From assembly GCA_049296775.1 (NCBI GenBank), contig JBAQTB010000003.1:270068-334067 (forward strand): a DNA stretch of 64,000 nt. Direction: 5' to 3'. A program made the translations under genes and the position numbers. The stretch is from Patescibacteria group bacterium (GTDB lineage Bacteria; Patescibacteriota; Patescibacteriia; UBA9934). Shown in pieces: positions 6,559 to 26,448 of this stretch; the first letter of the stretch is position 1, and the number at the start of each line of letters is the position of its first letter. A model generated the notes under the pieces. It made no database searches. It was given only the letters and a program-made list of their open reading frames with translations, and had not been told where the DNA came from.

Positions 6559-7988
6559 TCGCGTTTGATCCCAGACGATTTGGAACGCAAGTTCCGGTGA
6601 TAAGCACCGGCGAATCTATGCGCTTCATCACGAGCTTTTTGAAAAACTTCTTTAAAGGCACTGGTTACCCGTCTTAACTCAGCATTACTAGCGTCATACA
6701 CTAACCGATCTTGTTTACGATCAAAACCTTTAGCAATCCCAACGATGGGAATGTTAAGCTTAAGCTCACGCAAAATTTGCTGAACACGATTAACCTGACC
6801 TTCGCCACCGTCGATAACCATAATGTCCGGCAGTGGCCATGATTCAGCTGACTTTTTTACTTGGTATGCAGGCGTGACTTGGTCGGAAAGAGTCGGCAAG
6901 CGAGCTAAGCGGCGTCTCATGACCTCTTCCATGGCGCCAACGTCATTACTGCTAGTAAAGCCTTTGATTTTAAATTTGCGATACTCGGATTTGCTCGGCT
7001 TGCCGCCCTCAAACACTGACATAGCGGCTACCATGCTCGTACCAGAAATATGGGCAATGTCATACGCTTCCACCCGGCCGAGAGCGTTAATATGACCAGC
7101 TGCAGGCGCGGCCGGCACGTCATAACCAGCGCCATCGTCTTTGATTAATAAACTAATGTCTTGGATGTGCTCCAGCGCGAACACGCGATTACGCAGGACG
7201 GCCGCGGCTTCAAAAGATTTTTTCCTGGCGGCCGCGGCCATTTCGCGTTTGAGCTGACGCAGCAAAGTCGCTTTCTTGCCCTCGAAAAATAACATCAGCT
7301 TCTTGATATTGCGTCGATACGTACGTTTATCGATAGTGCCAGCACAAACTCCCGGACATTTACCAATCTGCGCATCAAAGCACATTTTTGCGTTAGAGTA
7401 CTTCTCCCCCTTTTTTAAGGGGGAGGTTTGGTCGGAGGGGGTACTAGGGGCGGGTGGGTTACAAGTCGACCACGGAATCGAACGACGAATGAGATCGAGA
7501 GCGATCTTCAAAGATCGTCCACTCAGGTACGGACCGTACACAGCCAAGAATTGGCGACGAGCCTTGAGTGACAAGCGCTTGGAAAATGGTTGAATACCGA
7601 TGCGTTCAAGATCAAGTCCACGCATCAAGACTGGCTTAGGAAAGTCCTCGTTGGTAATACAAAGATAAATGAAACTCTTGTCATCGCGACCAAGAATGTT
7701 ATACGGCGGCTTATGCAGGCGAATCTGGTTGGCCTCCAACACCAAAGCCTCAATCACGGTTGGAACTTGAGAATATTTGATCTCGACAATCTTAGACACA
7801 AGCTCCGCCGTACGCGGATGTTTGTAGGTGCCAACGAAGTACGATCCAACGCGCTTCTTCAAGCTCGTCGCCTTACCAACGTACAGCAATTTACCAGCGG
7901 CATCGTAATAAAAATACACGCCTGGCGTATCTGGAAGGTCATTGTTGTGAATTTTGATTTGGTCTGGAATCATAGTTATCATTGACAT
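6555..7988 (-). CDS. uvrC: Excinuclease ABC subunit C (short form, 477 aa) with an in-frame repeat insertion
   Basis: GIY-YIG N-terminus (GVYFYYDAAGKLLYVGKATSLKKRVGSYF), Cys motif C..C..C, UVR region and RNase H-like domain; lacks a long C-terminal HhH tail. Confidence 0.85.
   Translation of the reverse strand: MSMITMIPDQIKIHNNDLPDTPGVYFYYDAAGKLLYVGKATSLKKRVGSYFVGTYKHPRTAELVSKIVEIKYSQVPTVIEALVLEANQIRLHKPPYNILGRDDKSFIYLCITNEDFPKPVLMRGLDLERIGIQPFSKRLSLKARRQFLAVYGPYLSGRSLKIALDLIRRSIPWSTCNPPAPSTPSDQTSPLKKGEKYSNAKMCFDAQIGKCPGVCAGTIDKRTYRRNIKKLMLFFEGKKATLLRQLKREMAAAARKKSFEAAAVLRNRVFALEHIQDISLLIKDDGAGYDVPAAPAAGHINALGRVEAYDIAHISGTSMVAAMSVFEGGKPSKSEYRKFKIKGFTSSNDVGAMEEVMRRRLARLPTLSDQVTPAYQVKKSAESWPLPDIMVIDGGEGQVNRVQQILRELKLNIPIVGIAKGFDRKQDRLVYDASNAELRRVTSAFKEVFQKARDEAHRFAGAYHRNLRSKSSGIKRD
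7404..7460. repeat. G/C-heptamer palindromic element (CTCCCCC-N8-GGGGGAG ... GAGGGGG) embedded in-frame in uvrC
   Basis: Inverted heptamers at 7404-7410 / 7419-7425 plus a third copy at 7435-7441; encodes the extra segment NPPAPSTPSDQTSPLKKGEKY between conserved UvrC Cys residues. Confidence 0.6.
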
Positions 7989-8032
7989 TATGCCTTATAT
8001 CTGCTAGTCTTGCACGTTCCGAATTATTCGGA

Positions 8033-8659
8033 ATGACTATTACGGAGCAAGCCATGCCCCTCGTGCAGCGTCCCTACACCTGGAAAGAGCGGCTCGTCGA
8101 CCAGATGGTCAAATGGATCAACCAGGTCACCGGTCATACCTATGAGCTGTCGTATCGCAAACACCTACCCTACCCAACTACACTCGCCGAAGAGTTGGAT
8201 GTACTCACGAAGTTGCACTTTGCCCTCAACCTCAATCGTGATAATGGTGGTGATACGCTACTCGTCAAACTAACGTGCTCTACAGTGCGACCTGTGTTTG
8301 GCCCTAGATTGTCGCAGCTCACTTACCCTACCGAAAGTTTCGTTCTGCCGAACAAGACAGTGAATGTCTACACCGTACTGTCTCATGAAACGCGCGGCCT
8401 CATACCCCGCCGTGAGGACAAACCCGGCGAATATGACTTCCGACACTGCCCAGTGACTATGCGCGCCTGGCAGGAAATCAAGCGACAGATGCCTCCGACC
8501 GGAACGACCACGATTACTTTAGATGACAAACATGGGAGATTGTCACGTTTTGTTTCAGGCGACTTCTTCATCGGTTCCTACCGCATCTTTAGGGGGCGTA
8601 TCGAGTACTCGCCTGAGATTCTGTCGGTAGTGATCGTACCGCAGTGGCACTCAACATAA
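8033..8659 (+). CDS. Hypothetical protein (between uvrC and uvrA, opposite strand)
   Basis: ORF fills the gap exactly; first ATG at 8033 (MTITEQAMPLVQRPYTW...); no recognisable domain. Confidence 0.4.
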   Translation: MTITEQAMPLVQRPYTWKERLVDQMVKWINQVTGHTYELSYRKHLPYPTTLAEELDVLTKLHFALNLNRDNGGDTLLVKLTCSTVRPVFGPRLSQLTYPTESFVLPNKTVNVYTVLSHETRGLIPRREDKPGEYDFRHCPVTMRAWQEIKRQMPPTGTTTITLDDKHGRLSRFVSGDFFIGSYRIFRGRIEYSPEILSVVIVPQWHST

Positions 8660-11259: not shown

Positions 11260-11784
11260 GTGAAATTGGAGGTCTCCATGCTGAACGAGGAAGAAATTAG
11301 CCTACATGTGAATCGCCATCGACAGGTGTTAATAGACAACATCTTTAGATGGCGTCACCTTTACAGCGGCAGTCCCGCCGAAGTGGAGGCAAGCATACAG
11401 CGGCGTTTAAAAGTAATTGATCTGCTCGCAAGTTTCCATGTTGACGACTTGGTGATGCAGATCTGCAACCCTACCTTTACAGAAGCTGACCTACAATCAC
11501 TCAAAGACCAGGCTATGCAGCTTGGGATGGGCGGTGCCAGTCAACCGGACACTTGCGGACAGGGCGTAGAAGAGCCGAGCATTGACTACAACGCTTACAG
11601 CGAACCACCGAGTGAAGACGATGGCAAAACTATCGTTACTGCTACCGATGCCGATGCCCGTAGCAATGGCGTTGGCCTGCCCATCCTCGACATCCCCAAG
11701 GGATTAGAAATCATGGACAATCCCCAGGAAGAACAAGATAAAGCTTGGTGGCCAAAGAGGATCTGGAACAAGCTCACCCGTTAG
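11260..11784 (+). CDS. Hypothetical acidic protein (between uvrA and uvrB, opposite strand)
   Basis: 174 aa ORF filling the gap; 4-nt convergent overlap with the uvrB stop; no known domain. Confidence 0.4.
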   Translation: MKLEVSMLNEEEISLHVNRHRQVLIDNIFRWRHLYSGSPAEVEASIQRRLKVIDLLASFHVDDLVMQICNPTFTEADLQSLKDQAMQLGMGGASQPDTCGQGVEEPSIDYNAYSEPPSEDDGKTIVTATDADARSNGVGLPILDIPKGLEIMDNPQEEQDKAWWPKRIWNKLTR

Positions 11785-14100: not shown

Positions 14101-14553
14101 ATGCAGCTCGTAGAACTCGTCGCCCTCATGCGTGACCACAAGGCCGCCCAACCGGTCGTTACGGCAGCCGTCAAAACACTGCCCTTGCCCATCACATCGT
14201 GCCTGCACGTCGCCGTACGTGTCGCCGACGTGCTGGTAGAAAATCGCTCCAGCACGAGCGAGATCGAGCTCATCACCTGGGTGGTAAAAGCTGATCACGG
14301 AGAGACCGCCAAACTCCGTCTACTCATGGCGGCGACGCTGTTTGAACAGCTCCAAAGCGAATTGCTGACTCCAGGTCGAACCCGGAAATTCTGCGAAAAG
14401 GTCATCGAACACTACTTCGAACACCGCAGTGAAAAACTGGACGTGCCGCTCCTCGAACTACACAAATGGGTCTTGTCACCTGACGAGATCAAGTCACTCG
14501 AACGTGACGGCATCGCCGCGTTCGAACAGCAATATCTCCTGCAAGCTGCCTAG
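14101..14553 (+). CDS. Hypothetical protein
   Basis: 150 aa ORF with its own consensus promoter and downstream terminator hairpin; preferred over overlapping antisense ORF 13966..14298. Confidence 0.5.
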   Translation: MQLVELVALMRDHKAAQPVVTAAVKTLPLPITSCLHVAVRVADVLVENRSSTSEIELITWVVKADHGETAKLRLLMAATLFEQLQSELLTPGRTRKFCEKVIEHYFEHRSEKLDVPLLELHKWVLSPDEIKSLERDGIAAFEQQYLLQAA

Positions 14554-14696: not shown

Positions 14697-15122
14697 ATGC
14701 AGGATATCGATGATACCCAGGTAATCGATCGTGAAAGCCTACAAACGAGGCTCAACAAACTGAAGAGTACGCCTCGATCGCTGAACGATGTCGAAACGCT
14801 GATCGCTGGCGTGACGACCAATTCCGGATACACATTCAAAAGCGAAACCAGCCTACAAATTTGGTGCGACTGTGCGCCAAGTTACAGAATGGCGGTAGAC
14901 CGCACCCGCGTAGTGCGAACACTGATCGCTCGGATGACCGTCTCAGACTCAAAGGTCAACGAGCTGGCCGACAAGCTGCTCGCGCAAACGAGCGGCAAAC
15001 ACAACGCACGTCAAGTGCGTGGACTCGATGAACTCAAAACAGAGAGCGACAAACAAGTCCTCTCCGATCTTGAACTCGAGCATCTCACCCTGAAAAATGA
15101 GCTTTGGCTCTTGCGGGACTGA
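14697..15122 (+). CDS. Hypothetical protein
   Basis: 141 aa ORF with own promoter and terminator; no recognisable domain. Confidence 0.5.
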   Translation: MQDIDDTQVIDRESLQTRLNKLKSTPRSLNDVETLIAGVTTNSGYTFKSETSLQIWCDCAPSYRMAVDRTRVVRTLIARMTVSDSKVNELADKLLAQTSGKHNARQVRGLDELKTESDKQVLSDLELEHLTLKNELWLLRD

Positions 15123-15729: not shown

Positions 15730-16643
15730 TCAAGTAAATGTTCACGCGTGGTGGATGGTAATTGGAATGAACGCATGAGATCGTTCAATTGGAGCGGCGG
15801 TACATCGATCTTGGACATGTCATTCACCCCCAAACCCGCCTCCGCCAACAGCTCTAAGTAACCCAGACCATGCGGATCCAAGCCCATGAGAGTCGCCGCT
15901 ACCGCGTCCACTGCCACGGCGTCATAACCTGATAAAGCCAGGCCCATCGCCACCGGACTCCCCTCCACCGGCCCAGAGCCTTCCATGGCTAACACGCCGT
16001 CGATAATCGCCACGTCACACGCCTTCTGCGTATACAAAAACGCCAAGAGCTCATGCATCATGCGCGGTCCACCCACCGACAACCACGGGTAACGCGACCA
16101 CACCCGTCCCTGCACCGTTACGCGTGGCGGCACCAACATAGTTCCTTCTGCCCAATTGCTCACAGCCAAAGCCGCACCGTAATCCTTATGGGTCTTCAGG
16201 TTTGTGATCGAAATAGTTAAATCAGCCTCCATGACGACCTTGGGACGACGCAACACCGATTGGTTACCGCTAACGCTCACAAAAGTCTGCTCAACATAAT
16301 CCTCGTCCTGTAGATCAAGTAATTTTAGATCGGAAAACTGTTCCGGCAAACGTTCGTAGCCAAAATTCCTAAAGGCCGCCTTAGTCCCAAAATGAGCCGC
16401 ATCACCCACAATCACCGGCGCCTTGGTATACATGCGGATCACATCCAGCAAGCCCCGCACGGCATCAACGTGCACCGCGGCTAATTGCAACTCGTAATGG
16501 ACTAAATCGGGCTTAATCAGAATTAATTTTGCAAGCTTTAACTTGTCTACAAAAGACTGCCCAAGAGCCTCAACTGACTCCCGCACAACCTTACGACGAT
16601 TCTCACCCTGGATGATATTTACCTTAGTCATACAATGATCCAA
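15714..16643 (-). CDS. DUF362 domain protein
   Basis: 309 aa; motifs KPDLV, ITNLKTH and DGVLAMEGSGP are typical of the DUF362 family; 16-nt overlap with the NMNAT start. Confidence 0.6.
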   Translation of the reverse strand: MDHCMTKVNIIQGENRRKVVRESVEALGQSFVDKLKLAKLILIKPDLVHYELQLAAVHVDAVRGLLDVIRMYTKAPVIVGDAAHFGTKAAFRNFGYERLPEQFSDLKLLDLQDEDYVEQTFVSVSGNQSVLRRPKVVMEADLTISITNLKTHKDYGAALAVSNWAEGTMLVPPRVTVQGRVWSRYPWLSVGGPRMMHELLAFLYTQKACDVAIIDGVLAMEGSGPVEGSPVAMGLALSGYDAVAVDAVAATLMGLDPHGLGYLELLAEAGLGVNDMSKIDVPPLQLNDLMRSFQLPSTTREHLLDWQTE

Positions 16644-16763
16644 GAATACCTTAACCGTTTAAAAAGTGCCATTCTACCTCAAGCAAACCAGTTGGTTTGC
16701 AGAAATCAAGAATTTGCGCTATTTTACCTCCGCAATCCCATCAGAGTTTACACAAATTAGCCC

Positions 16764-16837
16764 TCCGAGATCGTCTAATGGCAGGACAGCGGCCTTTGAA
16801 GCCGTGAATCTTGGTTCGATCCCAAGTCTCGGAACCA
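16764..16837 (+). tRNA. tRNA-Gln (anticodon UUG)
   Basis: Hand-folded cloverleaf: acceptor TCCGAGA/TCTCGGA, D-stem GTCT/GGAC, anticodon stem GCGGC/GCCGT with loop CTTTGAA, T-arm CTTGG-TTCGATC-CCAAG, discriminator A, encoded CCA; 74 nt. Confidence 0.85.
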
Positions 16838-16894
16838 TGAAGTAGAAACCCAACCGGTTTCTATTTTTTGTTTACCGGTGGGTTTCACTTCATG
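16836..16894 (+). terminator. Long near-perfect hairpin (~21-bp stem, T-rich loop) immediately 3' of tRNA-Gln
   Basis: CATGAAGTAGAAACCCAACCGGT ... ACCGGTGGGTTTCACTTCATG; a 21-bp stem with one mismatch and one bulge; starts inside the tRNA CCA. Confidence 0.55.
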
Positions 16895-17083
16895 GTTACA
16901 CCTTAAGCTAAATGCTAAAAATGGGTGGTCTTGTCCTGAACCATTGCAGGGATTTGAATAGCTATATATAAAATGTTCCACAATAATGAGCTGAGTAGAA
17001 ACAAATCGATAATCTGTCTTCAGCAATGAAGCTAAATTTTTGGCTTGTTCATTACTCTAATATTAATGTAAAGTGTTATTGAT

Positions 17084-17539
17084 ATGTCTGATAAATACGT
17101 TTATAATTTAATTTTCCCTGATCATGTAGACGAGTTTAAGATCGGTGATTATACGTTTAGGCGGACAGCCGACTACGTACACCGCGTCGATCAGATGCAA
17201 CACTTAATCAATGTCACGGGAACCGAGCATTCATTCAGTACTCAGACAGGCACGCATGCACTTACGGCTACAGTACATATTCCTGCCGATGAAAAGCCTG
17301 GAACATTATCCTGGTCCGAAAAAATTCCCAACGCGACACAGCTTCTTGACATCCTATTGCTACTCACTCTATTTACCAAACATAATGTTTTTGCTGAGGA
17401 TGAGGCAATATCACCAGATGTACCGATCATTCAGGATCACCGTTCCCATGCTTACGGTAATGAACTTCGATTGGCACTACCAAGCGACCTGCATGGAGAC
17501 ATAAAGCAACGCGCGTTATATTGGGTGACAGCGAGATGA
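17084..17539 (+). CDS. Hypothetical protein, first gene of AT-rich two-gene module
   Basis: 151 aa; AT-rich relative to its flanks; stop TGA overlaps the ATG of the next gene (ATGA). Confidence 0.5.
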   Translation: MSDKYVYNLIFPDHVDEFKIGDYTFRRTADYVHRVDQMQHLINVTGTEHSFSTQTGTHALTATVHIPADEKPGTLSWSEKIPNATQLLDILLLLTLFTKHNVFAEDEAISPDVPIIQDHRSHAYGNELRLALPSDLHGDIKQRALYWVTAR

Positions 17540-18054
17540 ATTGGCAGCAAATATCAAAATACCATCGTGTAGATCTTGGATTTGAAAAAAATCTTAATCT
17601 AGTGCTAGAGACGATTGAGGATCCTACATGGAGAAATAAATATGATCGTGGTTATTTTCTATTCTTGATTCGGGATGTTTTGCAGCGGCAAATTATTGAG
17701 AAGGCCTTTTTAACATCGTGGACGATCTGGGAACAAATTTTTGCGCTCGAGAATACAAGTTGGTTGTCAGAAGATGAGATCTTTCGTATGAGCGGAGACC
17801 GGAAGATCGCCTATGGCCTAACGACCTACTTCGACGTTAAGCTCACAAAAGTGGGTTGGAAAAACGTAAAACGAATGACGCGCTCTCGGAATCGTTTGAC
17901 TCATTACGGAAAAATTGGTGACGTATCAATCAAGGAAAAACGAATGTTCATTGAATTGACGGAGCAACTAGTCGCTAAAACGTTAGGATTGACACCGTCC
18001 AACGCGTTAAATACACGAGAATACGTTGAGGAATTTCTGGCAAAGACTGATTAG
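17536..18054 (+). CDS. Hypothetical protein with HEPN-like R-x4-6-H motif (RSRNRLTHYG)
   Basis: 172 aa from ATG 17536 (the ORF track starts at TTG 17521); predicted helical; the Rx4-6H motif is in the position typical of HEPN/Abi-type RNase domains; translationally coupled to the upstream gene. Confidence 0.45.
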   Translation: MNWQQISKYHRVDLGFEKNLNLVLETIEDPTWRNKYDRGYFLFLIRDVLQRQIIEKAFLTSWTIWEQIFALENTSWLSEDEIFRMSGDRKIAYGLTTYFDVKLTKVGWKNVKRMTRSRNRLTHYGKIGDVSIKEKRMFIELTEQLVAKTLGLTPSNALNTREYVEEFLAKTD

Positions 18055-18206
18055 AGATTTTGTGAGTTACTTTCTCGTGTACCGAAAAGAACTTTTGTCA
18101 ACAAACTCAGATAATCAAATAAATCAAAAATTATGAGATTCTCAAAAGTAGGCAGGTGACAGGAATTAGCCTACAATGAGTGATAAATTGTTTAGACAGT
18201 ATAAAT

Positions 18207-18746
18207 ATGTTGAATGTTTTAGTGGCTTCTAGGAATCCCGTGAAAATTCAGGCTATAAAACAGGCGTTTGAGAAGATGTTTCCCACTGAAGAATTAACTA
18301 TTAGCGGAGCAGAAATAGAGTCTGGAGTGGCCGAGCAACCCATGAGCAGTGAAGAAACTTTACGTGGTGCCAGAAATAGGAATCAAACTTTAAGACAAAA
18401 TCACCCTCAGGCCGATTATTACGCCAGCATTGAAGGTGGTGTGTTTGCTGACACTAATGACGAACTCATGGTCTTGGCCTGGATAGTTATCACCAATAGC
18501 GCCGGCCAGGAAAGCAAGGCGCAAACTGGAACTTTTTTGTTGCCGCCAGTCATCACAGCTCAAATTAAAAATGGGGTAGAGATGGGGGTAGCGGCAGATA
18601 ACTTGCACGGCACCACTAATGTTAAACAAGGCCTGGGCACCGTAGGTATTTTAACCGACGGCGTTATTAATCGGACGGATTACTACGTGCATGCGGCCGT
18701 GCTGGCACTGATTCCGTTCAAGCAAGGCGAGCTGTATAAATTCTAA
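18207..18746 (+). CDS. yjjX: Inosine/xanthosine triphosphatase (YjjX family non-canonical purine NTPase)
   Basis: Collinear with E. coli YjjX: NPVKIQAI.QAF, ESGV.EQP, ETL.GARNR, AIEGG, WIVI.NSAGQ, LLPP motifs; ATG at 18207 preferred over the GTG at 18180. Confidence 0.75.
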   Translation: MLNVLVASRNPVKIQAIKQAFEKMFPTEELTISGAEIESGVAEQPMSSEETLRGARNRNQTLRQNHPQADYYASIEGGVFADTNDELMVLAWIVITNSAGQESKAQTGTFLLPPVITAQIKNGVEMGVAADNLHGTTNVKQGLGTVGILTDGVINRTDYYVHAAVLALIPFKQGELYKF

Positions 18747-20480: not shown

Positions 20481-20507
20481 AAAACCGTCCTGATGGGACG
20501 GTTTTTT
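20481..20507. terminator. Bidirectional rho-independent terminator
   Basis: AAAACCGTCC-TGATG-GGACGGTTTTTT; serves rpmB (+) and the giant gene (-). Confidence 0.6.
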
Positions 20508-23500
20508 AGTTGCTGACCAAGGGGTCTGTGCCATTTTCGACCTCCTGTGAATCAATGAAGCCATCATTATCTGTGTCATTCAAATCTGGATTAGTCTCGT
20601 AGAGCAACTCCTCATCGTCAGTCAGACCATCACGATCCTGATCGTTTCTAGTTAAGCCAAAACGTGTAAAGAAGTCCCGAATCTTCAGAGGCACAGTCAC
20701 CACGAAGGCCTCGCCAAACCAATAATGACGGAACATGGTAGGTGGCACAGTCAGAATAAAGTCTTGCCAATTATCGCCTAAGATAAATCTAGCATCCTCC
20801 TCATTTGAAATGTGGTGCAGGATATTTGGCGCCTCAGATGTATATACTTCTGGCTGACTCTCGATCTGAACTAAGATAACTCCGGTCTGAGGCAAAATTG
20901 GCTCACCCATGGGATAGAGCGATAAGGTTTCATCTGGCACAACCACTAGGCTATCCATATTGGTAAACCAGGTGTAGAAAATCTCTTCATTCCAGAACGG
21001 ACGGCGTAAACCGTCTTCCAGCCAGTACACAGTGGGTAACCCTTCACCCTTAAAGACATCCCCGTTCGCCACTGGACCGGGCGGCGTAGTCTCTCCAGTG
21101 TCTTCATCATCAGTCGTGTCATCGTCAGCACTCGGCGCACAAACGCCAAGATCTACAATCACGGGCACGGTTGGATGACGATTATTCGTTGTCGAAACTA
21201 AGAGCACATACACGGTCTGTAGTCCCTCAGTAGCCGGGATATGCCACGGAATTAACATCGCTTCAATGCCCGCCTCATCGGCCAAACTAGCATCTGGCTC
21301 AAAGTCATACATCTCAGACTCAATAAACTCTGCATCATTAGCTATAAACACCCTCACCGCTCCCCTGGCTTGAATAAAGAGATCGACATTGGCGCCATCA
21401 GTACACGAATTAGTCAGCTGTCTAGCCTCCACGATCACGCCCGTCACAAATGAAGGTGATACTCCCCCTGAACCTGAGCTGTCATTATCCAAAACTTCGA
21501 CCTCAACATCAGCAATCACGAAACCATCGTAAACACCATCAAAGGAGGCGGCGGTGTGAGAAATCGTAACCGTCATTGGACTGGTTTCATCCTGAGAATC
21601 ATCCAGGGCTGTCACGGTGACAGCTTGAGGCGTATCCCAATTAGCATTAGTAAACGTAAAGACCTCAGCACTCACCTCAATTTCAGTAGCATCGTAAGTT
21701 AACGAAATCGCCACGTCAGAGGTTGGTTCACTGGTTAAAACTAAAGTGTAATCATCAGAAGTCGCTCCAAGCTCATCCACGCTGGTTGCGCCGCCAGATT
21801 CAACCACAGTAATCCCAGCTGTGTCATTATCGGTGTTAGTGACGTCAACATCAGCTGGATTTAAACCGTTATAAATCAGATCGTTAGAAACGGCTGCACC
21901 TAAAATAATCATGTACGCCACATCGCCGTCATCCAAATCATCATCCGCACCTGTAACTGTGACGGTTTGCGGAGTGCTGTAATCGCCTACGGTGAAGGTC
22001 AGAGTACCTCCACTCGTCACCGCGCCTTCACTGTCGTCATTGGTCGCCACGGCGATAGTGACGGTGTCACTAGGCTCAGTCTCTAAAACTACGGTGAAAG
22101 TGGCCGTGCCACCGGCTTCAGTGGTATTACCAGAAATCGCCGAGACCGTAATACTAGAAGTATCGTTATCAGTGACGTCAACGTCCAAAGCATCAAAGAC
22201 TAAACCGTCGTAGGTAAGGTCAGAGGATGAAAACTCGAAAGTCACCACCCCGACATGTGGGTCTGTTTCATCCAGATCATCATCAACAGCTGTGACCGTG
22301 ACTTCTTGCGGCGTATCCCAATTTTCAGTGGTAAAAGTCAATTGTGCAGTTGAGCCAGTAATATCCGCATCAAAAGCCAGGTCAACCGTGACATTATTAG
22401 ACGGCTCAGAGGTCAAGACCAATGTAAACGTATCCGAAGTTTCAGATGCCTCAGCCACTGCCGTATTCCCACCAGACTCGACCAAACTAGCACCCAATGC
22501 ATCATTGTCAGTATTCGTGACCGACACATCGTTCGGGTTAATCGCATCGTACGCTGCATCTGCAGTACTCGCGTCATCGGTTGAGGTCTGAATGGAATAA
22601 GCGATATCGCCATCATCCACGTCGTCATTAACACCGGTCACAGTCACGGTTTGTGGAGTGCTCCAATTCAGCGTGGTGAAAGTACGAGTCGCTCCGGAAG
22701 TAACCGTACCCTCCGTACTATCCGACGAAGCCGAGTCTACCCGCACGTCACCAAGCGGCTCAGACGTTAACACGACCGTAAACGTAGCCGTACCCCCGGC
22801 TTCCGTGGTATTGCCAGAAATAACTGAGACAGTCACGCCCGCGGTGTCGTCATCTGTGTTAGTGACTGACACGTCACTTGGATCATAAGCATCATAGCCC
22901 GCATCGAGAGTGCCGGTATCGTTAGTAGACACATCGATAGTATAAACAACATCACCATCATCAACATCATCATTCACGCCGGTCACAGTCACGGTTTGTG
23001 GGGTGTCCCAGTTATCCGTCGTGAAGGTCAAGGACGAACCGTTCGTAACCGTACCTTCCGTAGCATCATTAGTGGCAGAGTCGATGACGACATCATCTAA
23101 AGGTGCAAAATCCAAAACCACTGTATAAGTCGCCGTACCCCCGGCCTCTGTAGTATTGCCAGAAATAGCGGAAACGGTCACACCAATATCTGAAAACCAA
23201 CCATCAGTATTACTACCTTCCTCGGAATTGGCTGGGTTAAGCGGCACCGTCACCGCAGAAGAGTTGTCGATGGCGGTATTGTCTGAAACGGTCAAATAGT
23301 CACCGGTAAAGGTGGAGGCACCAGTAAAATCAAAGGCGGCCTCGCTACCGTCCATGGTAGCGATAATGATGATCTTATCGCTACTATCAAGACCGTTTAA
23401 TAGCAAAGAGCTACCGATAGTCTGTATCGATCCAGAAGCCAGAGTCAAAGTATTACTGGCGGCATCGTTACTCGTCTGTTCATAAATAAAGTCATACCAA

Positions 23501-26448
23501 GTAGTATCACCAGTCAAACTATGATCTGCATCAGCATCAAAAGTGACCGTTCCAGCCTGTGCTGCAAACGTGCCGGCATTAGTCCAGTCTCCCCCAATGG
23601 TCAAAGCGTAATCCTGGCCAGACACCATATTCAAAGTACCGGACGTCAACGTCAAATCAGCATTAACATCTAAAGCAGTAGCTGGTTGAAAAGTGTCAGT
23701 CGCACCGTCAGTGCTATTAATCACGAGGTTAGAGTAGGTATCCTTCAATGTAGTCAAAGTATAAGTATCTATAGCAGTATCGCCGTCTCCTACATACGTC
23801 ACTATAGAGCCGGAGTTGAGAGTTGGATAAGTTGCATTCAAAGTAATCGTTTCTGCGCCTTGAAGCTGAAAATTACCTCCATCTTCAACGATAAACGTAC
23901 CGCTCAGTCCGTTCACCGTTAACGCTTGTCCGCTTAAGTAAAATTTGCCTTCCTCAATAATCAAATCCTGGTTATCTTCATCGACCACAAGAGCTGACAG
24001 CAAATTCACCTGCCCCCCATCTTTGTTAACATATATATCTGCGGTAAATTTATCTGTGGCGCCGGTTAGATCAAAAGACTGGGTAGCCGAACCGCTGAAT
24101 CTCAACGGCACAGTGCTACCATCAAAACCAGCTTGAACGGTCACGTTAGCCTGAGGCTCGATACTGCCTGTAATAGTCGACAGCGTGCCGTTGGTTAAAA
24201 TTAAATTACCAGTCAACGTTAAAATGTCTCCTTCACCAATAGAGGTTCCAGAGATTCTGTTGATGGTTAATTGATTAAAAGTCTGCGTACCATTGAAATT
24301 CCAAGTTCCGCTAGTGACCGTGGCTGTAATCAGCGTAGGCGCAATAAAAGTACCTCCGGTTATGTCGAAATCTCCACTCACATTCCAGGCACTTTGGGCA
24401 CTGGCGTCATAAGAGCCCGCCGCCTGCATCCAATCATCAACTGTGAGCGTAAAATCACTGGGATTATTCAAGGGAATTGCCCCAGAAAAATCAGATGTAG
24501 CCTCAATGGCGTTCAGAGTCGCAGCTGCTCCAATGTCAATATCATCATTTGCATCCGCCGCACTATTCAGACGAATTCTCGGAGCAATACCCCCAGTAAT
24601 AGTGTAGGTTTGTGCCACGGAATCATCACCAAAATCAATATAGGCCGTACCCCCATCAAAACCTGCGCCCTGAGAAATATTAGCTCTGGCATCTACCTGC
24701 GAAGTACTCCCGGTGATTGAGCCGTTAGTTAGGGTCAATAAACCCGTAACCACAAAAGTATCGCCCGCGATCATTGAAACGGAACTAGCACGATTAATTG
24801 TTAATTGATTAAAAGTTAAACTCGTAACCACATTCCAAGAGCCACTCGTACCAGTAGCAGTTACCAAAACTGGGGGCACAAAGGTGTCCACCGACAAAGT
24901 CAGATCACCACTCAAGTTCCAAGCACTTTGGGCACTGGCGTCATAAGTACCGACGGCCTGCGTCCAGGCATCGATAACTAGAGTAAAATCGCTCGGGTTA
25001 TTTAAGGGGATAGCCCCAGAGAAACCCGCATTAGTTTGAATAGCGTTCAAAATGGCCGCCGCTTCAATATTAATGTCATCACTAGCGTCAGCGGCACTAT
25101 CCAAACGAATTCTAGGCGCAGTACCACCGCTCACGGTATACGTCTGCACCAAGCTATCGTTACCAAAATCAATATACCCGTTACCACCGTCAAAACCAGC
25201 GCCCTGGTTGACATCCCCTTGGACGATGATCTCACCAGTCGATCCAGATATTGAGCCGTTAGTCAAAGTCAACGTACCGTCGACCGCTAAAGTGTCATTC
25301 GTTCCAAAAACTAAGGAGCTCGTACGATTAATCGTGAAATCTGCAAAGGTCTGGCTGGTATTGACATCATACGTACCCGTCGTTCCGGAAGCTGTCACCA
25401 AGGCAGGAGCCGTCAATGTACCACCAGATATGGTCAATGATACGATATTCCAAGCAGTTTGCGCGCTGGCGTCATACGTACCAGCCGCCTGCGACCACAA
25501 GGTAAAAGTTGGCACAAAATCACCAGCGTTGCTGAATGGAATAGTTCCAGAAAAACCGGAGGTAACAGTTAAGCTCGTAAATGTGGTGGCGGCGCTATGT
25601 AGAACGGTGTCGCTAGCATCCGCAGCGCTATCTAAACGAATGTTAGGAGCGATACCTCCAGCAGCGGTATAGGTCTGACCCACACCGTCATTACCAAAAT
25701 CAATGATCGCCGAACCACCATCAAAGCCAGACGTTTGGCTAATATCCCCATTAGCCGTAATCGTTCCCGTATTTACCACACCGTTTGTCAGCGTCAGCGT
25801 GCCATCTACCACCAACGTATCTCCTGACGTAATCGTCATCGTGGAAGTACGATTGATAATTAAGTTATTAAAAGTTTCTGTCACGCTCACGTTCCACGTG
25901 GCGGTGGAGCCATCCGCAGTCACCGTACCAGTAGACGGAGCAAAACTTCCTGAACTAACCGTAAAGGCCCCCGCCACTGCCATATTGCCGCTAGTCGACG
26001 TAAACGTTCCGCCCGAAACCGTAAACGCATCATTAAAATCTAAAGCGCCATCACTCCCAGTAAACGTACCGGCGGAAATATCAAAGTCAGACGTGCCAAC
26101 AGTCAGCGTTGCGGCCGCCGCCTGCGTAACCACGCCGGAGTAGCCCGTGTTAATGTCTACGCCACCCACACTGATTGCACCATCAAGAGTGGCAGCCTTG
26201 GTGCTAGTACCGTCAAACGTAGCTATGTCACCAACACCTGGCTCTACATTACTACTCCAGTTAGCATCACACGACCATTTATTGCCGTCACCCACTCCAC
26301 CGCCACATGTACCATCTGCGCCACCGCCGTCCCAAGTAATGACCGCCGCCTGAACTGAACTAGAACTTAACGCAAAAACAACCAAAAGACTGGCAAGACT
26401 AACGCATATGACGCTACTCATCCTCAAAAACCAATAGACACGCTTCAT
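20506..26448 (-). CDS. Giant secreted surface/adhesin-like protein (1980 aa)
   Basis: N-terminal signal peptide; four ~145-aa beta-helix-like tandem repeats; about five Calx-beta/cadherin-like repeats (VTVTGVNDDVDDGD); acidic linker; conserved C-terminal domain also found in the 50512 gene; terminal DxDxDG thrombospondin-type-3-like Ca-binding repeats. Confidence 0.8.
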   Translation of the reverse strand: MKRVYWFLRMSSVICVSLASLLVVFALSSSSVQAAVITWDGGGADGTCGGGVGDGNKWSCDANWSSNVEPGVGDIATFDGTSTKAATLDGAISVGGVDINTGYSGVVTQAAAATLTVGTSDFDISAGTFTGSDGALDFNDAFTVSGGTFTSTSGNMAVAGAFTVSSGSFAPSTGTVTADGSTATWNVSVTETFNNLIINRTSTMTITSGDTLVVDGTLTLTNGVVNTGTITANGDISQTSGFDGGSAIIDFGNDGVGQTYTAAGGIAPNIRLDSAADASDTVLHSAATTFTSLTVTSGFSGTIPFSNAGDFVPTFTLWSQAAGTYDASAQTAWNIVSLTISGGTLTAPALVTASGTTGTYDVNTSQTFADFTINRTSSLVFGTNDTLAVDGTLTLTNGSISGSTGEIIVQGDVNQGAGFDGGNGYIDFGNDSLVQTYTVSGGTAPRIRLDSAADASDDINIEAAAILNAIQTNAGFSGAIPLNNPSDFTLVIDAWTQAVGTYDASAQSAWNLSGDLTLSVDTFVPPVLVTATGTSGSWNVVTSLTFNQLTINRASSVSMIAGDTFVVTGLLTLTNGSITGSTSQVDARANISQGAGFDGGTAYIDFGDDSVAQTYTITGGIAPRIRLNSAADANDDIDIGAAATLNAIEATSDFSGAIPLNNPSDFTLTVDDWMQAAGSYDASAQSAWNVSGDFDITGGTFIAPTLITATVTSGTWNFNGTQTFNQLTINRISGTSIGEGDILTLTGNLILTNGTLSTITGSIEPQANVTVQAGFDGSTVPLRFSGSATQSFDLTGATDKFTADIYVNKDGGQVNLLSALVVDEDNQDLIIEEGKFYLSGQALTVNGLSGTFIVEDGGNFQLQGAETITLNATYPTLNSGSIVTYVGDGDTAIDTYTLTTLKDTYSNLVINSTDGATDTFQPATALDVNADLTLTSGTLNMVSGQDYALTIGGDWTNAGTFAAQAGTVTFDADADHSLTGDTTWYDFIYEQTSNDAASNTLTLASGSIQTIGSSLLLNGLDSSDKIIIIATMDGSEAAFDFTGASTFTGDYLTVSDNTAIDNSSAVTVPLNPANSEEGSNTDGWFSDIGVTVSAISGNTTEAGGTATYTVVLDFAPLDDVVIDSATNDATEGTVTNGSSLTFTTDNWDTPQTVTVTGVNDDVDDGDVVYTIDVSTNDTGTLDAGYDAYDPSDVSVTNTDDDTAGVTVSVISGNTTEAGGTATFTVVLTSEPLGDVRVDSASSDSTEGTVTSGATRTFTTLNWSTPQTVTVTGVNDDVDDGDIAYSIQTSTDDASTADAAYDAINPNDVSVTNTDNDALGASLVESGGNTAVAEASETSDTFTLVLTSEPSNNVTVDLAFDADITGSTAQLTFTTENWDTPQEVTVTAVDDDLDETDPHVGVVTFEFSSSDLTYDGLVFDALDVDVTDNDTSSITVSAISGNTTEAGGTATFTVVLETEPSDTVTIAVATNDDSEGAVTSGGTLTFTVGDYSTPQTVTVTGADDDLDDGDVAYMIILGAAVSNDLIYNGLNPADVDVTNTDNDTAGITVVESGGATSVDELGATSDDYTLVLTSEPTSDVAISLTYDATEIEVSAEVFTFTNANWDTPQAVTVTALDDSQDETSPMTVTISHTAASFDGVYDGFVIADVEVEVLDNDSSGSGGVSPSFVTGVIVEARQLTNSCTDGANVDLFIQARGAVRVFIANDAEFIESEMYDFEPDASLADEAGIEAMLIPWHIPATEGLQTVYVLLVSTTNNRHPTVPVIVDLGVCAPSADDDTTDDEDTGETTPPGPVANGDVFKGEGLPTVYWLEDGLRRPFWNEEIFYTWFTNMDSLVVVPDETLSLYPMGEPILPQTGVILVQIESQPEVYTSEAPNILHHISNEEDARFILGDNWQDFILTVPPTMFRHYWFGEAFVVTVPLKIRDFFTRFGLTRNDQDRDGLTDDEELLYETNPDLNDTDNDGFIDSQEVENGTDPLVSN
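24080..25810. repeat. Tandem ~435-bp coding repeats (x4) inside the giant adhesin gene (approximate bounds)
   Basis: Protein-level repeats ..GFDGG..YIDFG.D...QTYT..GG.APRIRL.SAADA.DDI.I..AA.LNAI....FSGAIPLNNPSDFTL..D.W.QA.G.YDASAQSAWN.. recur four times. Confidence 0.55.

What the first reader, a model, noticed from the sequence alone, without database searches (positions are those of the whole stretch)
16764..18054. tRNA-Gln-adjacent AT-rich two-gene module with a HEPN-like Rx4-6H protein (candidate defence/abortive-infection island)
- **Context.** tRNA-Gln is followed by an unusually long hairpin (a 21-bp stem with one mismatch and one bulge) and then a ~1 kb AT-rich segment, with GC well below the ~50% of its flanks.
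- **Coupling.** The segment carries two translationally coupled genes, with the stop of gene 1 overlapping the ATG of gene 2 as ATGA at 17536-17539.
- **Gene 2.** This 172-aa protein is predicted all-helical and contains RSRNRLTHYG, which fits the HEPN Rx4-6H RNase motif found in Abi, Cas and toxin families.
- **Gene 1.** This 151-aa protein has no recognisable domain.
- **Inference.** A tRNA-flanked position, compositional deviation and a HEPN-like partner pair are the usual footprint of horizontally acquired phage-defence or toxin modules. This pair does not match a named system that I recognise.
Basis: partly seen in the sequence, partly recalled or inferred. Interest (0 to 1): 0.65.

Follow-up and report, generated by a model that had tools for sequence, protein, structure and literature searches.

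The report
Frameshift-split HEPN RNase defence-type gene
The two "coupled genes" next to tRNA-Gln are the two halves of one ~320-residue protein with a C-terminal HEPN (ApeA-like) RNase domain; its relatives often sit inside restriction-modification and other phage-defence loci, and here the gene is cut in two by a one-base frameshift.

Summary

The "two-gene module" reading is wrong. A profile search found 183 cluster representatives. Most are single chains of 300-335 aa that cover ORF1 and ORF2 colinearly. The two ORFs are therefore one gene, interrupted by a frameshift in the codons for the variable interdomain linker (about 17482-17536).

- **Fold.** AlphaFold2 models the rejoined 323-aa protein as one compact unit (pLDDT 93.9, pTM 0.91).
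- **N-terminal domain.** This α/β domain of about 135 aa matches no family or solved fold.
- **Context.** Nine of eleven loci carry restriction-modification (R-M), toxin-antitoxin, TIR, BrxC/D-like or nuclease genes nearby.
- **Relatives.** The two closest relatives lack the gene. There is no integrase and no tRNA-derived direct repeat.

My best reading is an uncharacterised short ApeA-like single-protein HEPN defence candidate. This copy is split and may be inactive. Two other copies are also disrupted.

The parts
16764..16837 (+). tRNA-Gln (anticodon TTG). It is the upstream neighbour, not part of the gene.
   Evidence: ARAGORN and Rfam RF00005 at 61.2 bits. It is 100% identical to the tRNA-Gln of relative L002.
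16833..16897 (+). Long hairpin that starts in the tRNA 3' end. An inner terminator-like stem with a T-run lies at 16839-16867. Most likely it is the tRNA-Gln terminator.
   Evidence: Fold z-score -7.4 and a terminator scan hit. Relatives L002, L006 and L013 also have strong hairpins after tRNA-Gln, and L002 shares the distal arm TTCATGGTT.
17084..17539 (+). ORF1 (151 aa). It encodes the N-terminal α/β domain (about residues 1-135) plus part of the linker of the family protein. Conserved residues include N8, F11, Y31, G56, T61, D89, R100, D118, R120 and G125.
17482..17536 (+). Zone that holds the frameshift. Both reading frames are open here. It encodes the variable, low-confidence interdomain linker.
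   Evidence: Frame translations. Hybrid proteins that switch frame anywhere from 17482 to 17524 score 356-357 bits against the family HMM, so the exact base cannot be placed. The model's pLDDT falls to 56-77 for residues 131-160. An independent Logan assembly gives the identical sequence.
17536..18054 (+). ORF2 (172 aa). It encodes the C-terminal HEPN domain. The catalytic-type motif R269-N270-R-L-T-H274-Y-G276 (fused numbering) lies at about 17886-17909. The helix-1 motif reads WTIWEQ where most members have WTIWEH.

Best explanation
ORF1 and ORF2 are one gene, not a pair. The gene belongs to an uncharacterised family of single-chain proteins of about 300-335 aa. [quoted passage not shown]

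By analogy with ApeA and other HEPN defence proteins, I infer the following mechanism. Two HEPN domains dimerise to form a composite Rx4H RNase site. The N-terminal domain acts as the sensor or regulator that licenses RNA cleavage (tRNA or phage RNA) on infection. The outcome is growth arrest or direct restriction.

In this genome a one-base frameshift in the linker-coding stretch (about 17482-17536) splits the gene. It yields a 151-aa N-domain ORF and a 172-aa HEPN ORF that happen to overlap as ATGA. The copy is either recently inactivated or expressed as two pieces that could reassemble.

Shown here: the split, the colinearity with single-chain homologues, HEPN homology and fold, motif conservation, defence-type neighbourhoods, absence from relatives and low GC. 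Inferred: RNase activity, dimerisation, the sensor role, the defence phenotype and the functional state of this copy.
For: - **Fusion in the nearest homologue.** The only close homologue, P0002/L001, reads straight through the ORF1/ORF2 junction. The rejoined sequences align colinearly at 44% identity with no gap at the junction.
- **Family size and architecture.** The profile search found 183 representatives at E<=1e-3 and 99 at E<=1e-30. Most are 300-335 aa and cover profile positions 1-324. A further 104 proteins have 91-100% coverage for nearly all.
- **Structure.** AF2 of the rejoined 323-aa protein gives pLDDT 93.9 and pTM 0.91, with a dip only at the linker.
- **Neighbourhoods.** The gene sits between hsdM and hsdS, with AbiEii nearby (L020). 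It overlaps a Type ISP/IIG R-M enzyme gene by 4 nt (L027). It follows a Type III R-M mod/res set and a PDDEXK gene (L022). It lies beside BrxC/D-like ATPases and a helicase (L019). It has TIR neighbours (L023, L028). It lies near HicA and Hypoth_Ymh (L014), MNT/HEPN and PemK (L025), and a NucS_C nuclease (L001).
- **Published ApeA data.** ApeA is a single-protein HEPN defence system with motif RNKITH. It is activated through a pocket between the N-terminal and HEPN domains and cleaves tRNA or phage RNA (bioRxiv 10.64898/2026.01.26.701840; 10.64898/2026.03.20.713152).
- **Accessory status.** No nucleotide or protein trace exists in relatives L002 and L006. This is the lowest-GC stretch of the window.
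Against: - The window protein itself, split or rejoined, hits no Pfam or PADLOC HEPN model. The HEPN assignment is by transitive homology plus fold.
- No family member has been tested experimentally, so the defence role rests on neighbourhood and analogy.
- This locus has no recognisable defence neighbours, and one homologue (L017) sits among housekeeping genes.
- The window copy has Q where most members have the helix-1 His (WTIWEH).
- The AF2 model used a rejoined sequence that I reconstructed.
Confidence: 0.75

Rival explanations
1. It is a true two-component module, such as toxin-antitoxin or sensor-effector. ORF1 and ORF2 would be made as separate, translationally coupled proteins, with ORF1 restraining or activating the HEPN ORF2.
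For: - The ATGA overlap is real, and each ORF is otherwise intact with no further lesion.
- The split falls exactly in the flexible interdomain linker, where split proteins often still assemble.
- The catalytic motif is intact.
Against: - Nearly all full-length homologues are single chains.
- No other genome examined shows the same split.
- The other short copies checked are a frameshift in an A7 run (L001) and an in-frame stop (L025). Those look like damage, not design.
- SD evidence is uninformative, because 46 of 52 long ORFs in the window lack an SD motif.
Confidence: 0.2
2. The frameshift is a sequencing or assembly error, and the organism carries an intact single ~323-aa gene.
For: - The source is a metagenome-assembled genome.
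- Exactly one base separates the two frames.
- The linker length matches that of the nearest homologue, 48 residues between conserved anchors.
Against: - The NCBI MAG and an independent Logan assembly of SRR28012402 are 100% identical over 4272 nt, including the junction. The sample link between the two was not checked, so they may share reads.
- The zone has no homopolymer longer than GGG.
Confidence: 0.12
3. It is a housekeeping or non-defence RNA-processing protein of Patescibacteria that only happens to carry a HEPN-like helical domain.
For: - This locus and L017 sit among housekeeping genes.
- HEPN domains also occur in RNA-processing proteins (PMC3710099).
Against: - The gene is absent from the closest relatives, in a variable region.
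- It is patchily distributed across phyla.
- It is repeatedly embedded in R-M and defence loci.
- Recurrent disruption of copies is typical of costly accessory genes.
Confidence: 0.07

Closest known systems
ApeA (single-protein HEPN anti-phage system; Gao et al. 2020; Pfam HEPN_Apea PF18739; the ApeA/BMEI1217 family of Anantharaman et al. 2013)
   Same: - It is a single polypeptide with an N-terminal region lacking sequence-detectable homology to known proteins and a C-terminal HEPN.
- The motif is R-N-[KR]-[IL]-T-H: RNKITH in Ec1ApeA and RNRLTH here.
- Pfam HEPN_Apea is the best-matching HEPN model for family members.
- ApeA was noted as embedded in R-M operons in epsilonproteobacteria (PMC3710099), which several members of this family also are.
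   Different: - ApeA is about 580-600 aa, and its minimal homologue is 467 aa. It has an N-terminal domain (1-198), a Mid domain (199-309) and a split HEPN with insertions (335-583), and most tested homologues form decamers or dodecamers (10.64898/2026.01.26.701840; 10.64898/2026.03.20.713152).
- This family is about 320 aa, with a 135-aa α/β N-domain and a compact HEPN of about 160 aa.
- No PADLOC hit to a Gao-type ApeA system model was returned; only weak 'Cas13-ApeA' HEPN models hit.
- HEPN_Apea scores are marginal (at most 28.5 bits against a cutoff of 24.4), and HEPN_Swt1 is nearly as good.
Minimal HEPN toxins of MNT/HepT toxin-antitoxin pairs (e.g. 7AE8, 5YEP, HI0074)
   Different: Those are proteins of about 130-150 aa, neutralised by a separate MNT nucleotidyltransferase antitoxin. 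Here the partner (ORF1) is not an MNT, and in homologues it is covalently fused as an N-terminal domain.
Abi-type HEPN proteins (AbiD/AbiF Abi_2/Swt1-like, AbiJ, AbiV, AbiU2)
   Same: They are single-gene abortive-infection proteins of about 200-350 aa with a C-terminal HEPN. There are weak HEPN_Swt1 hits in 22 of 104 members.
   Different: No hit to any Abi model in PADLOC or Pfam at E<=0.01. The N-terminal domain is unrelated.

Membership tests
HEPN superfamily | Conserved Rx4-6H motif with a polar residue after R | tested here: met
   RNRLTH in the window. R269 and H274 are invariant and N270 and G276 at least 90% conserved across 104 homologues.
HEPN superfamily | All-α four-helix core fold with the motif near a helix end | tested here: met
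HEPN superfamily | Metal-independent RNase activity that depends on the R and H residues | not testable with these tools
   This needs biochemistry.
ApeA defence system | HEPN_Apea (PF18739) domain above Pfam's gathering score | tested here: inconclusive
   Met by homologues P0218, P0220, P0226, P0004 and P0243 at 25.5-28.5 bits against a cutoff of 24.4, and by 34 of 104 members at E<=0.01. The window protein, split or rejoined, gives no hit.
ApeA defence system | Protein of about 470-600 aa with ApeA N-terminal plus Mid domains (ApeA-NTD1 of about 300 aa) | tested here: not met
ApeA defence system | Match to PADLOC ApeA system model | tested here: not met
   Only weak 'Cas13-ApeA', DUF3644 and CARF_HEPN hits with E>=9.5e-5.
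ApeA defence system | Experimentally shown anti-phage protection, and oligomerisation into dimers or doughnut-shaped assemblies | not testable with these tools
   No multimer prediction tool or experiment was available.
Type II toxin-antitoxin pair (HEPN toxin plus cognate antitoxin) | Two separate, conserved, co-occurring genes | tested here: not met
   Homologues are single fused chains. The split is seen only here.
tRNA-integrated genomic island | Integrase plus a direct repeat of the tRNA 3' end at the far boundary | tested here: not met
   There is no direct repeat of the tRNA 3' end in 16600-18400. The flanking genes that could be identified are ITPase, a DUF362-like protein, NMNAT and DUF6938, and several other neighbouring ORFs gave no family hit. 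Low GC and absence from relatives are met.

The most novel reading that the evidence does not exclude
The family would be a previously unrecognised, compact (~320 aa) single-protein HEPN anti-phage system, a 'mini-ApeA' with a new sensor domain. It would be frequently carried as a passenger inside Type I, III and ISP R-M operons. The copy here would be a naturally split version whose sensor and RNase halves still assemble and work as a two-piece system.
Probability: 0.15. Interest if true: 0.6.

Novelty: new variant of a known kind. Interest (0 to 1): 0.4.

Why it matters
The work corrects a plausible mis-annotation: two "hypothetical proteins" (WAZ14_04195 and WAZ14_04200) are one broken gene.

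It also defines a sizeable, unannotated family of at least 183 clusters at 50% identity. The family joins a HEPN RNase domain to a novel N-terminal domain and keeps turning up inside R-M and other defence loci, including in Patescibacteria. If the family is a defence system, it would be a minimal scaffold for asking how a small sensor domain gates a HEPN nuclease.

The specific copy in this window may be inactive. Its own biological importance is therefore modest.

Tried and rejected
- **Direct family scans.** Scans of ORF1 and ORF2 against Pfam, PADLOC, PHROGs and NCBIfam gave nothing. The weak AHL_synthase hit (E 0.031) was dismissed.
- **Word-indexed searches.** Searches with each ORF alone found only self plus one homologue.
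- **Pattern scans.** Scans of viral contigs and metagenome contigs found no relatives.
- **PDB sequence search.** A search with the family profile gave nothing.
- **Foldseek against PDB.** Nothing significant.
- **Frameshift position.** I tried to pin the frameshift base with an HMM scan of hybrid proteins. It could not be resolved within 17482-17524, where scores differ by less than 1.3 bits.
- **Programmed -1 frameshifting.** By eye, I found no X XXY YYZ slippery heptamer near TTATATTGGGTG or AGATGA, so I rejected this.
- **Alternative genetic code.** Reading through the ORF1 TGA would only extend ORF1 by 10 codons to a TAG, so I rejected this.
- **SD motif upstream of ORF2.** A GGTGA lies 7 nt upstream, but it is uninformative in this genome.
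- **Hairpin as an island boundary.** Rejected, because relatives have analogous tRNA-Gln terminator hairpins.

Full report
**Observation**

The features are all present.
- tRNA-Gln(TTG) lies at 16764-16837 (Rfam).
- A very stable hairpin spans 16833-16897 (-37.3 kcal/mol, z -7.4).
- Two + strand ORFs lie at 17084-17539 (151 aa) and 17536-18054 (172 aa). They overlap as ATGA.
- The ORF pair has 0.423 GC, against a window mean of 0.491 (sd 0.025). The 15 lowest-GC 971-nt windows of the 64 kb all start between 16501 and 17601.
- Neither ORF hits Pfam, PADLOC, PHROGs or NCBIfam.
- The source is an NCBI MAG labelled "Patescibacteria group bacterium", locus tags WAZ14_04195 and WAZ14_04200.

**The two ORFs are one gene**

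The only close homologue found by the word-indexed search is P0002, on a 1.77-kb Logan contig (L001). It is a single ORF covering the C-terminal half of ORF1 and all of ORF2. The N-terminal half of ORF1 is encoded just upstream in L001, in another frame. The break there is at an A7 run.

The rejoined window and L001 proteins align colinearly at 44% identity with no gap at the window's ORF1/ORF2 junction. There are 48 residues between the conserved anchors PII.DHR and RVDLG in both.

A profile of these sequences was searched against 1.84 billion cluster representatives. It returned 183 proteins at E<=1e-3 and 99 at E<=1e-30. The great majority are single chains of 300-335 aa covering profile positions 1-324. 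A second profile search gave 104 proteins, nearly all with 91-100% coverage of the rejoined query.

In the window, ORF2's frame is open from about 17461 and ORF1's frame until 17537. Hybrids that switch frame anywhere between 17482 and 17524 score 356-357 bits against the family HMM. The lesion therefore lies in the variable linker and cannot be placed to the base.

An independent Logan assembly of SRR28012402 is 100% identical over 4272 nt, including the junction. An assembler artefact is therefore unlikely. A read-level check was not possible, and I did not verify that the two assemblies come from different reads. I saw no slippery heptamer, so programmed frameshifting is unlikely (by inspection).

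**What the protein is**

AlphaFold2 on the rejoined 323-aa sequence with 104 homologues gives pLDDT 93.9 and pTM 0.91. That is one compact two-domain unit. Low confidence (56-77) is confined to residues 131-160, the linker where the split lies.

The C-terminal domain:
- It is all-helical.
- R269 and H274 are invariant, and N270 and G276 are at least 90% conserved (RNxxxHxG). A CWTIWEH motif is also strongly conserved.
- Members P0218, P0220, P0226, P0004 and P0243 pass Pfam's gathering cutoff for HEPN_Apea.
- Across 104 members the only recurrent Pfam hits are HEPN families: Apea 34, Swt1 22 and RiboL-PSP 9.
- Foldseek against PDB is not significant.

**Context**

Among the loci fetched for homologues:
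- The gene lies between hsdM and hsdS of a Type I R-M operon, with AbiEii and a Schlafen-AlbA_2 protein nearby (L020).
- It overlaps the end of a Type ISP/IIG R-M enzyme gene by 4 nt (L027).
- It follows a Type III mod, an AAA_15 ATPase, res and a PDDEXK gene, and lies near a resolvase (L022).
- It lies beside BrxC/D-like ATPases and a DEAD helicase (L019).
- It has TIR neighbours (L023, L028).
- It lies near Hypoth_Ymh and HicA (L014).
- It lies near MNT/HEPN and PemK (L025).
- It lies near a NucS_C-type nuclease (L001).
- Only L017 and the window itself lack such neighbours.

The family matches no named PADLOC 2.0 system and no NCBIfam model.

Copies are recurrently damaged:
- the window, by a frameshift;
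- L001, by a frameshift in an A7 run;
- L025, by an in-frame stop;
- several other short representatives on long contigs, which I did not inspect.

**Is it an acquired island?**

Relatives were found through the flanking 465-aa DUF6938 protein. L002 and L006 are 81% identical to it, and both keep L28 and the ITPase beside it; L002 also keeps DUF362 and NMNAT. Neither shows any protein or nucleotide trace of the module.

The segment between the ITPase and tRNA-Gln differs in each relative. L002 carries two unrelated ORFs and an inverted, 100% identical tRNA-Gln. L006 has about 6.7 kb of other genes.

The gene is therefore accessory and sits in a variable spot. There is no tRNA-derived direct repeat, and no integrase turned up among the flanking ORFs scanned.

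The long hairpin is best read as the tRNA-Gln terminator. Relatives have equivalent hairpins, and L002 shares the distal arm TTCATGGTT.

**Mechanism (inferred)**

The analogy is with ApeA, a ~600-aa single-protein HEPN defence system with motif RNKITH.
- Its HEPN domains dimerise.
- It is activated by ligand binding in a pocket between the N-terminal and HEPN domains.
- It cleaves tRNA anticodon loops or phage genomic RNA (bioRxiv 10.64898/2026.01.26.701840; 10.64898/2026.03.20.713152).
- The family was noted as embedded in R-M operons in epsilonproteobacteria (PMC3710099).

By this analogy, the family here most likely acts as an infection-gated HEPN RNase, with the small N-domain as sensor or regulator. 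It is not a bona fide ApeA. It is half the length, lacks the ApeA N and Mid domains, and matches the HEPN_Apea model only marginally.

Whether the split copy in this window is functional cannot be decided. The catalytic motif and both halves are otherwise intact, and the split is at a linker. Against that, the conserved helix-1 His is Gln here, other copies of the family are clearly decaying, and SD evidence is uninformative in this genome.

**Verdict**

It is a new variant of a known kind and of moderate interest.

Noticed in passing
L025 4001-4930; L001 726-1734: Two other copies of the same family are also disrupted. L025 has an in-frame stop after codon 179 (LILAQ*AFRRQ). L001 has a frameshift at an A7 run near 935-945. 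Several further short representatives sit on long contigs (P0010, P0089, P0116). Together these suggest recurrent inactivation of a costly gene.
   Followed up: partly
L002 4782-4855 versus window 16764-16837: The tRNA-Gln of the 81%-identity relative L002 is 100% identical to the window's. It is inverted relative to the flanking DUF362 and ITPase genes. The DUF362-ITPase interval is rearranged or variable in every relative examined.
   Followed up: partly
window, whole (long ORFs): 46 of 52 ORFs of at least 150 aa with an ATG start have no Shine-Dalgarno-like motif within 4-12 nt upstream. The genome appears to make little use of SD-led initiation.
   Followed up: no
window 20506-26448 (-): A giant 1980-aa repeat-rich secreted-type protein lies just downstream of rpmB (L28). 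It has a signal-peptide-like N-terminus and a weak TSP3_bac Pfam hit.
   Followed up: no
L003, L004, L005, L007, L008, L010, L011: Contigs with the same L28-DUF6938 gene pair (57-67% identity to the window's 465-aa protein) are labelled 'uncultured Gammaproteobacteria', 'Methylococcaceae' or 'Candidatus Kapaibacterium' in their records. The labels look inconsistent with the Patescibacteria-type synteny.
   Followed up: no
window 14101-14553 (+), 14697-15122 (+), 11260-11784 (+), 7982-8659 (+): Several upstream ORFs of 140-225 aa have no Pfam match at E<=0.01. They are unannotated neighbours of unknown function.
   Followed up: partly
L028 5276-6004; L023 5706-5987: In two homologous loci a gene with no Pfam hit (242 aa and 93 aa) lies immediately upstream of the family gene, with a 4-nt overlap and a 13-nt gap respectively. 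These could be lineage-specific partners. They were not compared with each other.
   Followed up: no
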